Shown: piece by piece, positions 3,167 to 50,800 of the stretch
Layout: each line of letters starts with the position of its first letter
Numbering within the stretch: position 1 is the first letter of the stretch
The notes under the pieces: model-generated
The model's database searches: none
Told to the model about the DNA's origin: nothing
Seen by the model: the letters and a program-made list of their open reading frames with translations, nothing else
Assembly: GCA_951406725.2 (NCBI GenBank)
Contig: OX597828.1
Location: 8,990,001 to 9,054,000, forward strand
Origin: Octopus vulgaris
Lineage: Eukaryota
Reading direction: 5' to 3'
DNA: 64,000 nt
Position numbers and translations under genes: made by a program

Positions 3167-3308
3167 GCATACAACATTCATACATAAATATATACATTCT
3201 TACAAATTACCTTCACATAGACATGTATGTATAGAAATTGGGCCAAATTGTGAGAGAGGGACAGACAACAATAAAGGTTTATACATAACTGGATCGGATA
3301 TATATATG

Positions 3309-3342
<34 letters not shown>

Positions 3343-4135
3343 TGTATGTATGTATGTATGTATGTATGTATGTATGTATGTATTATATAACTATATTACA
3401 ATAGTTATTATTGTAAGGCATACTAACAAAATCACTTTTCAGCTTTTTTGAAAAAATTATACCGTTATACGATATCATAGAAATCTGAAAGTTTTACAAT
3501 ATTTTATCTAATAACATTCAAGAGATAATTTTTTACATAATGTATATAGAATAAACTGTGCATTTCTCAAATAGCTAATTAACACATGAAACGACTGTTA
3601 TTGCTAGCAATCTTTTGTATATGTCAATCCCATCCTATCCAACCACACATGATGGAAGAGTTAGCGAACGCGCTGTTTTCTGATTGGCTAAAAATTCTGA
3701 AAATTTTCGAAATTTGAACACATGTAAATTTTTCCAAAAATTTGGTGATATAAATATATATAACAAATTCGGATTCTGCGTTAAAAATTACTTCTATATT
3801 ATCTACTAAAATTGTTTTCTAAACATAGTTGTAAACAGAGATGAAAACCCAAAAGAGCCCTCCTCTGTTTTACCTTGAAATAAAAGTAAATATATAAACT
3901 TTCTTGCTGAAATTAATGAACAAAACCAGCTTTTCATTTTGGAATTTTTGAGGGTTCAAACCAGAGAATAGTTTTTAACGAGCTTTTATTCATAAGATGA
4001 TTTCGTAACTTGTTAATTTCATTCATTGTTTTCAATGTTCTGTCTCCCTGTCCCCATATTCTGTCTTTCTTACACACAAAGGTACTCCAGGTGTGACCAG
4101 CAGGAAACAGCCCACAGGGTGGTCTTTCTACTGGT

Positions 4136-4166
<31 letters not shown>

Positions 4167-4192
4167 GATACATATATATGTATGTATATATG

Positions 4193-4282
<90 letters not shown>

Positions 4283-4296
4283 TGTGTGTGTGTGTG

Positions 4297-4452
4297 TGTG
4301 ACAATTATTCGGTAGCCAAGATAAAACTCTAAGTTTCGGATGCCGAGGTGGAAATCGATCGATGGCCGGATAACTGAGGAGATGGTGGTGTGGATTTCCA
4401 CCTCGGCATCCGAAACTCGGAGTGCTATCTTGGCTACCGAATAGTTGTCACA
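4297..4452 (+). mobile_element. Foldback mini-element (~60-bp arms) containing a type I hammerhead
   Basis: Arms 4297-4356 and 4393-4452; GATAA-CTGAGGA(4374-4380)-GATG.GTGG..CCAC..CATCC-GAAA(4412-4415)-CTCGGAGT; the left arm read on - gives GTT|TTATC, which completes stem I. Confidence 0.7.
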
Positions 4453-4533
4453 TATTATATTTACAGATAAATTCCTCTATTTACATGATATTGACGTCTC
4501 TTTCTCTCTTTTGTTATCTTACCATTTTTACCA

Positions 4534-4574
<41 letters not shown>

Positions 4575-4795
4575 GTGTATATGCATATATACTTACGTAT
4601 ATGGACATACCCACATCTATACGTATATATATAAGCATACATTGGCACAGAAAGTCATAAAACGTGGACAACAAAAATATACGAAGCGCAGGAAGTTATG
4701 GAACATGAACTATTCTTTCGAACAACGAAAGACATAAATAGAAGACAAAACAAACATCATAAAGAACTACACTTCATATGTTTTGGGCTGTATGC

Positions 4796-4829
<34 letters not shown>

Positions 4830-5352
4830 AATTAATAAATAAATAAAACATATGCATATATACATACATATATGTGCGTACCTACCTCTACATGTATATA
4901 TACATGCATATATTGGGTACAAGACACAAAAACAAAACGTCGAACGCAATGAGAAACGAAAACATAAACACAAAACCAAGGAAATGGACATTTTTCTTAA
5001 ACAACGAAAAAATAGTGTACAGGACATACAATACGAGGAACATTCCCCTTCTTCAGTCGCCTTTGTTTCATCTACTCCACGTTTTCGAAGGTCAAGGCGA
5101 TACATGACTTAAATGAAACATTCCTTTCCGCGAAATGCAAATTAAATAAAATTTGAGATTTTTTTGCGGAGGGGTAAAAATGGTAACAAAAACAGGACAG
5201 TAACGGCAGTAAAAAATATAAACAGTAAAAGACAGGACAAGGAGAATAATAGTAACACAGACAAGAAGGGCTGTTAAGCCGAACGAGATAAAATATTACG
5301 AACGCTATTTTTGGGAACGGCGAAGGAGCCACAGAAATGCCATATGGAGGAA

Positions 5353-5563
<211 letters not shown>

Positions 5564-6136
5564 ATATATATGTATGTATATATATTATGTATATAATTAT
5601 ATGCCTGAACGCCACGCATCCCCTTCCAAGTAAGTTTACATATATATATATATATGTGTGTATATAATGCATACTGTTGTATATGAAACCTTCTGGCAGT
5701 CGGTCCTTCCCAATTTGTCTTCCTTTTTATACATACACGGGAGTGATTTGCATGTATGTATGTATATATGTATGTTTTCTACACACACGCACTAATTATG
5801 TTCTATAATGGTCTATCCAAAGTAAAAGAAAAATTTGAAGTCTCCATATCCTTTGAATTTGTTTTGTATTTGTATTTATGAGAGTAATTCGTCTTCACTA
5901 GATGTCCCATCTATCGTACCTCATAGCAAACCAATACGGAGTATAATGCAGATTTCTACTGAGGTGAAATTATTTTACATGTCTAGACCAATATACAGGC
6001 TATGCATTGTCCAATATAATTTTTTTTATTTGCAAATAAATGCATATATAGAAGGCTAGCTCATCACATCATAAAATCATGGTTACACCACTGTTTTAGA
6101 TCTGCGTGTGTATAAAAATTTCCGATTATATATACA

Positions 6137-17115: not shown

Positions 17116-17283
17116 CAACAGCTGAAGAAAGATGAATGAGCAAAGTCCAAATTGTTTCATGCCCAACGTTTCTTAAAGTAATTTCACTCCTCTTCAATAG
17201 ACGCTTATATATACATATACATATTCACGCTTATATATACATAAGCACGCGTATGTATTCACACGTGCATATGTATATATATA

Positions 17284-17811
17284 TAGAATAACCCTCTTTA
17301 GCCCTTAATTATATGATGTTTATACTTCAACCGTAACGGTTTTTTTAAATATACTGCCCACGCTTCCTGATGGATTCCTTTTCTGTAGAGAAAGGGACTC
17401 CATCCCATATTGCTAGTAGTAAACTCGCTGCTTGCTACGGGAGGACCGGTAACCATTACAATTTGTAGCGGCGAAAGGTCAAGACGTTGTTTCTGAGGCG
17501 GACCAAAGAATTTTTATTTTTAGATATAAATGGTGTACTCAAGTGTAGTTATGTTTTTAGCTTGTGCTTTTTCCATGATCATACGTGAGTATTTTATTTA
17601 TATCCCATCGAAAGCTCTACTGAAGAAAGAATATATATTTTTTATAAGATTAATTCCGAAATTGATTCAATATAGAGATAACGAAATTTAAATTTTCTAA
17701 AGGTTAGTTGCCCGTTTTTCAGTTTCAATTCTCCTGTAGCAAGCGGATTATAAGTGGATAAATCAGTGTATTGGCTTTAGAATAACCCTATTTAGCCCTT
17801 AATTATATGAT
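17284..17811 (+). mobile_element. Retrozyme-like element: 494-bp monomer plus 34-bp terminal redundancy, inserted in (TA)n
   Basis: Direct repeat 17284-17317 = 17778-17811 (1 mismatch); internal hammerhead; long-range stem 17430-17443/17731-17744. Confidence 0.75.
17615..17677 (+). ncRNA. Type I hammerhead ribozyme
   Basis: Stem I CTCTA/TAGAG; core CTGAAGA (17620-17626); weakened stem II ..GAAT/ATTCC; GAAA (17658-17661); stem III ATTG/CAAT; ATA cleavage triplet ending at 17672. Confidence 0.75.
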
Positions 17812-18119
17812 ATATATATATATATATACATATATGTATACATACACGCACACACACACACAAATATATCTATACATATACGTATAGAGGCGCACGCACA
17901 TTTATACATAAACGTTCACACACAGTTAAATGCATATAGAAATATGTATTTTTTTATTTATAAGCCAATGTACGTAGGCTTATATGCATACATGTGTGCA
18001 TGCATGTTTAAACCTCTCGGTAATTTAAACCGATCTTTCGAACCATGTGCCATAAATATGCACACTGATGTCGGAGAATTATATATCGATGAGGACGTGG
18101 ACGTTAATGTTGATAGGAA

Positions 18120-24043: not shown

Positions 24044-24432
24044 TACTATTCGCTATAGGGACTGCTAAGCACTATAAGCTGTAGTGGAGAACAGTTCACA
24101 CGTGTGCTGAGGCTGACCAAGGGATTTTATATTTAGATATATCTGGGGTACTTATATGTACTAATGATTTTTGCTTCGGCTTTTTTCTATGGGTGCTTGC
24201 AAGTATTTCATTTATGTCTTTTCATATTTTCTACTGGAGAGGAAAAACATCTATTATGAGATTAATTCCGAAATTGATTCAATATAGAAATAACGAACTT
24301 TAAAAAAAAATTCTTCTGGCCAGCTTTCCTCGATTTCGACTCTACGTGTTTTCTGTAGCGAGTAAATAATATGTGGAAATTGAGGATTTAATAGTCTGTT
24401 ATCAGCATATTGGCATAGAAATAATTTTCTTT
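24042..24432 (+). mobile_element. Diverged partial copy of the 17.3-kb retrozyme family
   Basis: Collinear similarity (CTGAGGC.GACCAA, TTTAGATATA, AGATTAATTCCGAAATTGATTCAATATAGA.ATAACGAA, CTGTAGC.AG); begins in (TA)n. Confidence 0.72.
24228..24290 (+). ncRNA. Type I hammerhead ribozyme with one core substitution
   Basis: Stem I TTTCTA/TAGAAA; CTGGAGA; stem II GGAA/TTCC; GAAA; ATTG/CAAT; ATA| at 24284. Confidence 0.7.
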
Positions 24433-24519
24433 ACATATATATCTGTGTGTATGTTTTTGTGTATATAAATAAAATGAGACAACAAAGCGGAGGCAGTGTG
24501 AAATGTCTAGGACATTTTA

Positions 24520-25260
24520 TAAAAAATCAGTGTTACAACTGTGTCAGGGAGTTGTCATGGCGATACCTTCCCAGAGGCCTACGCAAATTTGCAGAAAGTG
24601 CATGGAGACGAGTACACAAGCCTCACACAAGTGTACGAGTGGTTCAGACGTTTCCAAGATAGATGTAAAGATGTCGATATTAAGGAAAGTTCTGGAGGAC
24701 CCGCAACCAGTAGAACTGAGAAAAACTTCGCTTATGTGCGTACAGGTATGAGGGGAAATCGTCAATTCACAATGCGTGAGTTATCGGAGGATGAGAAGAA
24801 TAGTTGCGATTCAGCTCAGTCCATTATCACTGAAGATTTGGGTATGAGACGCGTGTTTGCCAAGTTTGAGCCAAGACTGCTTCCAGCAGACTAATATTAC
24901 ACTTGGGTTTCATTTGCACAAGATCTCCTCGATTGTGTCGAGAAAGATGAAAATCTTGTTGAAAACTTTGCGTAGGCCTCTGAGCAGTGATCGCCAAGCT
25001 TTAGTCGAACTTTGATGCAGATTCTCTGCTCACATTTCTCTCTCATATGATGATCACACGCTACACACCTTTCTTCCAAGCATTGCTATGTACACACCTT
25101 TCTTACAAGCATTGCTATGCACAACGGTAGTGAGGCAGAGCCATGAAGCTTAGTGCGCATGCACAACAGAGTTCAAAGTCAATCTGTGCCAAGCAGCTTT
25201 ACTTTGCGTGTTTAGCTTCGTTACTATAGCAACAGTCCTGATATTTATTAATGAGACTAC
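24520..25260 (+). mobile_element. Mariner-derived non-autonomous element (transposase HTH remnant plus long right TIR)
   Basis: ORF 24541-24894 EAYANLQKVHGD..TQVYEWFRRF..SGGPATSRT..IITEDLGMRRVFAKFEPRLL; same family as 34478-35213. Confidence 0.82.
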
Positions 25261-29619: not shown

Positions 29620-29656
<37 letters not shown>

Positions 29657-29681
29657 TGGTGCATATATCTATCTATCTATT

Positions 29682-29743
<62 letters not shown>

Positions 29744-29860
29744 TAAACTAGATAGATAGATATATGCACCACTCCACATATATATAGGTATATATATATA
29801 TGTATCTCTCTCTCTCTCTCTATCTCTGTATGTATAAATATATTCCTAAATTTCTCATAT
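29600..29860. repeat. Interrupted ~260-bp foldback centred on (CT)n(AT)n(AG)n
   Basis: 29600-29626 is the inverse of 29834-29860; 29654-29679 is the inverse of 29749-29774. Confidence 0.85.
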
Positions 29861-49239: not shown

Positions 49240-49411
49240 TTATGAATTATGAATTATGAATTTTCTGGTTGATTCCGTAATGGAATCGGCGGCTTATATT
49301 TATTTGCTGCCGATAAATTTGGCGCGAGTGCGATGATTTGAAAATTTTAGGTCAGATATTGCCGAGGCAGGGACAGAAATGCCTAGTGAAAATATCTGTT
49401 CCGTTCTGGCT

Positions 49412-49518
49412 ATTTTTTACTGAGGAATCTAAGGGCCTATGGAAGATTGGCTTGATTTAATTTAATCAGGTTAGTTTACCATTAAACAGTAGATGAAACG
49501 GTGCATCGTATAAGAAAT
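49412..49518 (+). ncRNA. Type I hammerhead ribozyme, unit 1
   Basis: ATTTTTTA/TAAGAAAT (one G.U); CTGAGGA 49420-49426; ATCTA..TAGAT; GAAA 49495-49498; ACGGT-GC-ATCGT; GTA| at 49510. Confidence 0.85.
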
Positions 49519-49900
49519 TACAGGGTAAATGTTTTTTTAATTTTCTCCTGGTTTACGGAATTAATGTTATTTTTGCGGTTGAAGCTTTGGCTGTTATTTC
49601 TAGTGGGTGAATGGCCTATTATGGCCGTTCCTTGATTGTGATGTTGAACTTATAAATGGTCTAAGACTATTTAATTTTTTCCCACTAGGCCGCTGGTGGC
49701 AAAAAATTCTACCAAATTTTTTTGCCACCCTATATTGATTAATTATGAATTTTCTGGTTGATTCCGTAATGGAATCGGCGGCTTATATTTATTTGCTGCC
49801 GATAAATTTGGCGCGAGTGCGATGATTTGAAAATTTTAGGTCAGATATTGCCGAGGCAGGGACAGAAATGCCTCGTGAAAATATCTGTTCCGTTCTGGCT

Positions 49901-50007
49901 ATTTCTTACTGAGGAATCTAAGGGCCTATGGAAGATTGGCTTGATTTAATTTAATCCGGTTAGTTTACCATTAAACAGTAGATGAAACGGTGCATCGTAT
50001 AAGAAAT
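49901..50007 (+). ncRNA. Type I hammerhead ribozyme, unit 2
   Basis: Perfect 8-bp stem I ATTTCTTA/TAAGAAAT; CTGAGGA 49909-49915; GAAA 49984-49987; GTA| at 49999. Confidence 0.87.
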
Positions 50008-50391
50008 TACAGGGTAAATGTTTTTTTAATTTTCTCCTGGTTTACGGAATTAATGTTATTTTTGCGGTTGAAGCTTTGGCTGTTATTTCTAGTGGGTGAA
50101 TGGCCTATTATGGCCGTTCCTTGATTGTGATGTTGAACTTATAAATGGTCTAAGACTATTTAATTTTTTCCCACTAGGCCGCTGGTGGCAAAAAAATTCT
50201 ACAAAATTTTTTTTGCCACCCTATATTGATTAATTATGAATTTTCTGGTTGATTCCGTAATGGAATCGGCGGCTTATATTTATTTGCTGCCGATAAATTT
50301 GGCGCGAGTGCGATGATTTGAAAATTTTAGGTCAGATATTGCCGAGGCAGGGACAGAAATGCCTCGTGAAAATATCTGTTCCGTTCTGGCT

Positions 50392-50498
50392 ATTTCTTAC
50401 TGAGGAATCTAAGGGCCTATGGAAGATTGGCTTGATTTAATTTAATCAGGTTAGTTTACCATTAAACAGTAGATGAAACGGTGCATCGTATAAGAAAT
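50392..50498 (+). ncRNA. Type I hammerhead ribozyme, unit 3
   Basis: As unit 2; CTGAGGA 50400-50406; GTA| at 50490. Confidence 0.87.
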
Positions 50499-50720
50499 TA
50501 CAGGGTAAATGTTTTTTTAATTTTCTCCTGGTTTACGGAATTAATGTTATTTTTGCGGTTGAAGCTTTGGCTGTTATTTCTAGTGGGTGAATGGCCTATT
50601 ATGGCCGTTCCTTGATTGTGATGTTGAACTTATAAATGGTCTAAGACTATTTAATTTTTTCCCACTAGGCCGCTGGTGGCAAAAAAATTCTACAAAATTT
50701 TTTTTGCCACCCTATATTGA

Positions 50721-50800
<80 letters not shown>

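What the first reader, a model, noticed from the sequence alone, without database searches (positions are those of the whole stretch)
17284..17811. Second ~494-nt retrozyme family: one full monomer with 34-bp terminal redundancy
Seen: in (TA)n context, 17284-17317 is repeated at 17778-17811, giving a period of 494, almost the same as the 49-kb family despite no obvious sequence identity. It contains a type I hammerhead (17615-17677, AUA cleavage triplet), a strong hairpin GATGGA-TTCCTTTTCT/AGAAAGGGAC-TCCATC, and a 14-bp long-range stem 17430-17443/17731-17744. Inference: cDNA of a circular RNA read slightly more than once round. The similar size may reflect a constraint or remote shared ancestry.
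Basis: partly seen in the sequence, partly recalled or inferred. Interest (0 to 1): 0.72.

Follow-up and report, generated by a model that had tools for sequence, protein, structure and literature searches.

The report
Penelope-type hammerhead retrozyme copy
This is one of over a hundred young copies of a small protein-free jumping element with a predicted self-cutting RNA, a known kind; its copies end at two fixed points about 100 bases apart, which suggests that a Penelope-type enzyme writes them, likely from an RNA circle.

Summary
Observation confirmed: 34-nt repeat (33/34 identical, period 494), type I hammerhead core, hairpin and 14-bp stem are at the stated places. The element is a dispersed young family (185 exact hits of one 19-mer; relatives 677) inserted in (TA)n. 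The 34-nt overlap is not a hallmark: 3' ends are fixed, 5' ends vary, arms run 0.07-1.8 units, and this copy simply stops 34 nt past one round. Of 90 loci, 37 are head-to-head pairs with one arm ending at site A (unit 27-41) and one at site B (127-139); none is A+A or B+B. This is the Penelope-like (PLE) 'tail plus inverted copy' footprint, with a ~100-nt tail. An intact TA-targeting RT/GIY-YIG PLE in the genome has the same footprint but no detected sequence link. A circular template is likely (repeats within a locus agree, no array reaches two units, clean junctions) but not shown; RNA evidence is only guessed-RNA contigs. The window subfamily lacks the G10.1-C11.1 pair, so cleavage may be weak. 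Shared ancestry with the 49-kb family is unproven, though both share end motifs and spacing. The scan noted the same footprint earlier in other families of this genome. New member of a known kind.

The parts
17284..17811 (+). Single-arm retrozyme insertion, 528 nt = 1.07 units of a 494-nt unit; 5'-truncated at unit position 1, 3' end at site A
17269..17285 (.). Left (TA)n target; TA microhomology at the 5' junction
17284..17317 (+). First copy of the 34-nt overlap (internal unit sequence, read through in longer copies); contains site A passed in the second round
17318..17421 (+). ~100-nt 'tail' between site A and site B
17369..17404 (+). Conserved hairpin inside the tail, with two-sided changes among relatives; predicted RT positioning element (inferred)
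17400..17421 (+). Site B (unit 127-139), fixed 3' end of inverted arms in other copies; this copy has C at 17406 where 45 of 45 other aligned pieces have T
17430..17443 (+). 5' strand of 14-bp long-range stem
17615..17677 (+). Type I hammerhead; predicted cleavage between 17672 and 17673; A10.1-C11.1 mismatch
17731..17744 (+). 3' strand of 14-bp long-range stem
17778..17811 (+). Second copy of the overlap, ending at site A (inferred RT start site)
17810..17844 (.). Right (TA)n target

Best explanation
This is a 5'-truncated insertion of a non-coding 494-nt hammerhead repeat family whose copies sit in (TA)n and end at two fixed sites, and it was likely written by a Penelope-like reverse transcriptase/GIY-YIG enzyme copying a predicted self-cleaved, probably circular, monomer RNA. 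Inferred cycle: (1) a locus with two hammerheads in one arm (9 of 90 seen) is transcribed and would release a 494-nt monomer that is ligated; (2) the PLE enzyme cuts both strands of a TA run; (3) one DNA end primes at site A, the other at site B about 100 nt downstream, each at a UA that can pair with the TA end; (4) each cDNA runs a variable distance, through the hammerhead junction and past one round if it lasts; (5) the two cDNA ends are joined head to head, or one arm alone is joined to the target. The window copy is a one-arm product from site A that stopped 34 nt past one round; with one hammerhead it could not release a monomer itself.
For: Shown: fixed 3' ends and variable 5' ends; of 90 loci 49 have one arm (45 end at A, 4 at B) and 41 have two pieces, of which 37 are inverted A+B, 3 inverted with one eroded end, 1 degenerate, none A+A or B+B. 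Ends fall at TA steps in the unit. Junction overlaps of mostly 0-8 nt between arms. Same two ends in diverged relatives and in the 49-kb family. Intact 781-aa RT + C-terminal GIY-YIG elements in (TA)n with two ends about 35 nt apart, once as an inverted A+B pair. Published PLE hallmarks match (PMC11167929, PMC8557442). For a monomer template: no arm reaches two units (longest 905 nt); 7 B-arms exceed the 505 nt that any A-ended locus seen could template; tandem repeats inside an arm agree at 190 of 195 segregating-site comparisons, about 54 disagreements expected at random; L004 carries a private change in both tandem rounds and in the inverted arm; 6 array-private changes are fixed in all units of 49-kb-family arrays; 92 of 96 read-through junctions are unchanged. 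Three of 131 arms begin at the predicted cleavage site, 0.63 expected, P = 0.03.
Against: No sequence link to the intact PLE: blastn and the hammerhead model do not hit its pLTR, so the driver is unidentified. The tail is about 100 nt, against 30-40 nt in print and about 35 nt in the local PLE. Only 1 of 29 strictly private changes in tandem overlaps is shared by both rounds, so the direct test in this family is weak. Only 90 of an estimated 130 or more loci were examined; a longer master array could be among the rest. The window subfamily has A10.1-C11.1, which may weaken cleavage, and the linear MFE fold does not form the hammerhead. PMC11167929 found uncleaved RNA to be the main substrate in vitro and no strand difference in start sites. 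The cleavage-site excess is small and the first 30 loci were picked for length.
Confidence: 0.68

Rival explanations
1. Same PLE-driven element, but the template is a linear, mostly uncleaved multimeric transcript from one or a few unseen master loci; no circle is needed.
For: PMC11167929: hammerhead cleavage not needed for insertion in vitro. Weak stem II in this lineage. Arms beginning at the cleavage site after 1.3-1.5 rounds (L014, L022) fit a linear RNA cut at the first hammerhead only. No arm reaches two units, unlike the 49-kb family.
Against: No master of two or more units among 40 best-scored places or 90 loci; several haplotypes are each uniform within a locus, which would need several separately homogenised masters; long B-arms lack a visible linear parent.
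Confidence: 0.2
2. The RT jumps from the 5' end of a cleaved linear monomer to the 3' end of the same or another monomer, which mimics a circle.
For: Explains monomer-type uniformity and the few stops at the cleavage site.
Against: 92 of 96 junctions are unchanged, 3 have a substitution and 1 a one-base insertion; template jumps usually leave added or lost bases (recalled, from R2).
Confidence: 0.07
3. Classical LINE twin priming on one linear RNA (L1-type 5' inversion), with a non-PLE partner.
For: Head-to-head arms with short junction microhomology.
Against: Twin priming (recalled model) needs the inverted arm's outer end to lie next to the 5' end of the other arm and to vary; here it is fixed at B whatever the other arm's length, arms overlap in unit coordinates, and there is no poly(A) tail.
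Confidence: 0.03
4. DNA-level duplication or satellite relic; the 34-mer is a target-site duplication.
For: One copy alone looks like an element with direct terminal repeats.
Against: The 34-mer is read through in longer copies and flanks differ among loci; polarity of ends and the conserved ribozyme core point to an RNA step.
Confidence: 0.02

Closest known systems
Metazoan non-LTR retrozymes (Cervera and de la Pena 2020, PMC7229834: passages and section 14 read; Li, Clavereau and Pollet 2026, 10.64898/2026.07.22.740005: parts 1-3 of 5 read, supplements closed)
   Same: Non-coding, low GC, type I hammerhead once per unit, strongly folded, dispersed, co-occurring with PLEs; unit size within the 51-972 bp range of Li et al.
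   Different: 494 nt is above the 170-400 nt of Cervera et al.; no array reaches two units; circular RNA not shown here; the parts read do not describe fixed twin start sites or inverted arms for retrozymes; no homology to a pLTR found here.
Penelope-like elements, PAc/Poseidon in vitro (Frangieh et al. 2024, PMC11167929: parts 1-3 of 4 read, supplements not opened)
   Same: AT-rich target, both strands cut and extended, two internal RT start sites downstream of the hammerhead that define a 'tail'.
   Different: No ORF; tail about 100 nt instead of 30-40; strict A+B pairing in two-arm insertions, whereas the paper saw no start-site difference between strands; ends fall at TA steps that match the target, whereas PAc starts at non-homologous sites.
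PLE insertion structure (Craig et al. 2021, PMC8557442: passages read)
   Same: 5' truncation, partial tandems, an inverted 5'-truncated copy next to the 5' end, tail often at one end only, (TA)n bias.
   Different: Described for autonomous elements; 30-40-bp tail.
CChMVd plus-strand hammerhead with extra A10 (PMC3705267: passages read)
   Same: One subfamily here reads CUGAAGA-A-GG, an extra A between A9 and G10.1.
   Different: The window subfamily also has A at 10.1, giving A-C; genomic retroelement, not a viroid.

Membership tests
Type I hammerhead ribozyme | CUGANGA, GAAA, NUH core with stems I and III, open stem I | tested here: met
   Core intact in 47 of 49 copies; stem I 97% and stem III 100% of cells paired in 20 diverse copies, two-sided changes in 4 of 5 stem I pairs
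Type I hammerhead ribozyme | Stem II closed by R10.1-Y11.1 (usually G-C) | tested here: not met
   A-C in the window subfamily in either register; G-C in relatives (GGAA/UUCC, GGGA/UCCC, GGGG/CCCC) and, with an extra A, in a sister subfamily
Type I hammerhead ribozyme | Self-cleavage at the NUH site | not testable with these tools
   Indirect only: 3 of 131 arms start at the site, P = 0.03
Type I hammerhead ribozyme | Match to an Rfam hammerhead model | tested here: not met
   No match at E<=10; long stem II and weak closing pair may explain it (inference)
Non-LTR retrozyme | Non-coding unit of a few hundred nt with one type I hammerhead, many dispersed copies | tested here: met
   no frame of 120 aa or more inside the unit
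Non-LTR retrozyme | Tandem organisation with at least two hammerheads | tested here: inconclusive
   Not met by the window copy; met by 9 of 90 loci (two hammerheads in one arm); no array of two full units
Non-LTR retrozyme | No LTR, PBS/PPT or 4-bp TSD | tested here: met
   Ends abut (TA)n and the overlap length varies; PBS/PPT not searched separately; TSD cannot be read inside TA runs
Non-LTR retrozyme | Accumulates as circular RNA | not testable with these tools
   Only contigs of runs guessed to be RNA
Non-autonomous PLE | PLE insertion footprint: 5' truncation, partial tandem, inverted 5' copy, tail at one end, TA target | tested here: met
Non-autonomous PLE | Tail of 30-40 nt | tested here: not met
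   About 100 nt here and about 105 nt in the 49-kb family
Non-autonomous PLE | Homology to the pLTR of an autonomous PLE | tested here: inconclusive
   None with the PLE loci fetched; only 150 of 6136 GIY-YIG candidates were scored and 44 stretches searched

The most novel reading that the evidence does not exclude
A PLE enzyme dimer bound to one ribozyme circle assigns the two cut DNA strands to two fixed start sites on either side of a conserved hairpin, so every two-arm insertion is one A arm plus one B arm; and this lineage has given up the G10.1-C11.1 pair, tuning its ribozyme down so that circles stay closed long enough to be copied.
Probability: 0.3. Interest if true: 0.65.

Novelty: new member of a known kind. 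Interest (0 to 1): 0.45.

Why it matters
How retrozymes are copied into genomes, and how PLEs make their tandem/inverted insertions, are called open in the papers read (PMC8557442, PMC11167929, the 2026 preprint). A short, young, non-coding family with 37 clean A+B insertions, mapped start sites, a candidate RT-binding hairpin and natural hammerhead variants gives a ready substrate for in vitro tests. The element class itself is known.

Tried and rejected
Rfam: no match in the element; the 150 whole-window rows shown are miRNA models on microsatellites. Target-site duplication reading of the 34-mer: rejected. A second ribozyme near 17440-17510 (HDV-like or type II/III hammerhead): looked at by eye, core not canonical, no Rfam match, dropped. 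Apparent 5' ends at 387-389 in L007 and L027 were TA-run artefacts, true starts 395 and 400. L160 is a degenerate copy, not a template jump. Homology of the two window families: z = 1.7, other rotations score as well; the hammerhead model did not report the 49-kb hammerheads. Link to the 781-aa PLE pLTR: none. Sequencing runs: no RNA holder listed on record; contigs of four guessed-RNA runs cover the unit, one 526-nt contig wraps round it, but any multi-copy repeat does that, no silent control was laid, so this is not used as evidence. The empty-site structure stays untested. Look-up of earlier findings by sequence: nothing. Paper searches for this family or for twin start sites in retrozymes listed no such report; most were seen as listings only, and the preprint's supplements could not be seen.

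Full report
Observation. The window shows 17284-17317 repeated at 17778-17811 (33 of 34 identical, period 494) between (TA)n runs. A type I hammerhead reads from 17615 to 17677 with an AUA triplet at 17670-17672. The hairpin (17369-17404) and the 14-bp stem are present; the 528 nt fold at -140.1 kcal/mol, z = -6.15, and the monomer folded as a circle gives -132.7, z = -4.9 against 40 shuffles. Rfam has no match. Positions below are unit positions, 1 = 17284; predicted cleavage is after 389.

Family. The genome (2.8 Gb, 227 contigs) gave 107 matches at 40 scored places of 1186 candidates, 88-100% identical. Exact patterns: 95 hits for a subfamily hammerhead 14-mer (6 for the control), 185 for a site-A 19-mer, 79 for a tail 17-mer, 677 for a hammerhead 21-mer shared with relatives, 672 for a site-B pattern (controls 0). 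I examined 93 distinct stretches: 29 best-scoring loci (one duplicate dropped) and 64 picked from pattern lists on contigs 1-10. Three held no copy; two more-diverged second pieces (under 86% identity) were left out of the counts.

Anatomy of 90 loci. All arms point, in hammerhead sense, to a fixed 3' end in (TA)n: site A (27-41) or site B (127-139). 5' ends are spread over the unit and arms are 36-905 nt; 30 of 131 exceed one unit. One-arm loci: 45 end at A, 4 at B (most loci were picked with a site-A pattern, so this ratio may be biased). Two-piece loci: 37 inverted A+B, 3 inverted with one eroded end, 1 degenerate; none A+A or B+B. The 34-nt overlap of the window copy is therefore just its truncation point, and it is not a target duplication. 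Classical twin priming does not fit, because the outer end of the inverted arm is fixed and the arms overlap in unit coordinates.

Match to PLE biology. Craig et al. (PMC8557442, passages) describe 5' truncation, partial tandems, an inverted 5' copy, a 30-40-bp tail often at one end, and (TA)n bias. Frangieh et al. (PMC11167929, parts 1-3) show both strands cut and extended and two internal RT start sites that define the tail. The genome holds many open 781-aa frames with RT and C-terminal GIY-YIG; a CX4CxxC motif before the nuclease fits the Neptune/Nematis description. Of 23 fetched stretches holding that element's end, 14 end at one site, 7 at a second site about 35 nt further, 1 has both as an inverted pair and 1 was not classified; overlapping stretches were not merged. 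No sequence link to the retrozyme was found, so this element shows that the machinery and footprint exist here, not that it is the driver.

Hammerhead. The core is intact in 47 of 49 copies. Across 20 diverse copies 94% of cells pair, with two-sided changes in 6 of 16 pairs; slid controls give 20-52% (the sequences are related, so this is not a probability). Stem II base varies in a series: GGAA/UUCC, GGGA/UCCC and GGGG/CCCC in relatives; C-C or A-C in intermediate groups; an extra A with G-C in one subfamily, as in CChMVd (PMC3705267); extra A with A-C in the window subfamily. Activity is untested. Three of 131 arms start at 389-390, 0.63 expected, P = 0.03: weak support for cleavage in vivo.

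Tail. Its role in placing the RT is inference.

Circle or linear template. For a monomer template: no arm reaches two units; only 9 A-type arms hold two hammerheads; 7 B-arms are longer than the 505 nt any A-ended locus seen could supply. Within an arm, the two rounds agree at 190 of 195 comparisons over 28 segregating sites (about 54 disagreements expected at random), and the two arms agree at 326 of 339. Differences within loci are 1.2-1.4%, against 3.3% between loci on average and 1.0% to the nearest other locus. Strictly private changes are mostly in one copy only (28 of 29 within arms, 45 of 50 between arms), as expected for mutation after insertion; L004 has one in all three copies. In 17 arrays of the 49-kb family, 6 array-private changes are in all units, 65 in one unit, 4 in some, and none recurs in register across arrays. 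Junctions are unchanged in 92 of 96 read-throughs. An unseen linear master is not excluded, and array homogenisation after insertion could add to the 49-kb result.

Relation to the 49-kb family. It forms arrays of about a dozen units at most among those listed, has the same two-end rule, and ends in similar motifs: CCTTRATT..TGAT at A and CCTATATTG at B. Distances from cleavage site to A and B are 139 and 240 nt here, 132 and 238 nt there. Whole-unit similarity is not significant. A shared driver or old common origin is plausible, not shown. Why this family stays under two units is unexplained.

Expression. No run on record as RNA holds the element; contigs of guessed-RNA runs are not used as evidence.

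Earlier notes. After stating my reading I looked up the scan's notes: several other families in this genome were read the same way. These are unchecked AI notes and not independent support; they call the host a cephalopod, which I did not test.

Verdict. A real, young non-LTR retrozyme family with a clear PLE insertion footprint; class known, mechanism likely but untested. Interest 0.45.

Noticed in passing
window 24044-24435: Older relative of the same superfamily (74% identical over unit 160-409), starting in a TA run; canonical GGAA/UUCC stem II but core reads CUGGAGA, so likely inactive.
   Followed up: partly
window 49252-50728: Three-unit array of the 491-nt family, ending at that family's site B; the family shows the same two-end, inverted-arm rule and much longer arrays.
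   Followed up: yes
window 24523-24891: Mariner-type transposase fragment (Pfam HTH_48, E 1.2e-5).
   Followed up: no
L149:1881-3317 and 3239-5581: The active PLE has a 479-aa frame upstream that overlaps the 781-aa RT/GIY-YIG frame in another phase (also in L144); a frameshift or an intron could join them, whereas canonical PLEs are described with one ORF.
   Followed up: no
L142:6540-6960: A distant retrozyme relative (GGGG/CCCC stem II) is inserted in the TA run at the end of a PLE copy: one element's TA flank is the target of the next. L007 also lies beside what looks like another element's site-A end.
   Followed up: partly
L153:7643-7714 and L156:1046-1098: Two further type I hammerheads of other families found by the model.
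   Followed up: no
window 29652-29777: Near-perfect palindrome of mixed microsatellites with unique arm ends (alignment).
   Followed up: no
L014/L016 (one locus): Largest two-arm insertion seen (B arm 734 nt starting at the cleavage site, A arm 544 nt), with three of the few disagreements between repeats.
   Followed up: partly
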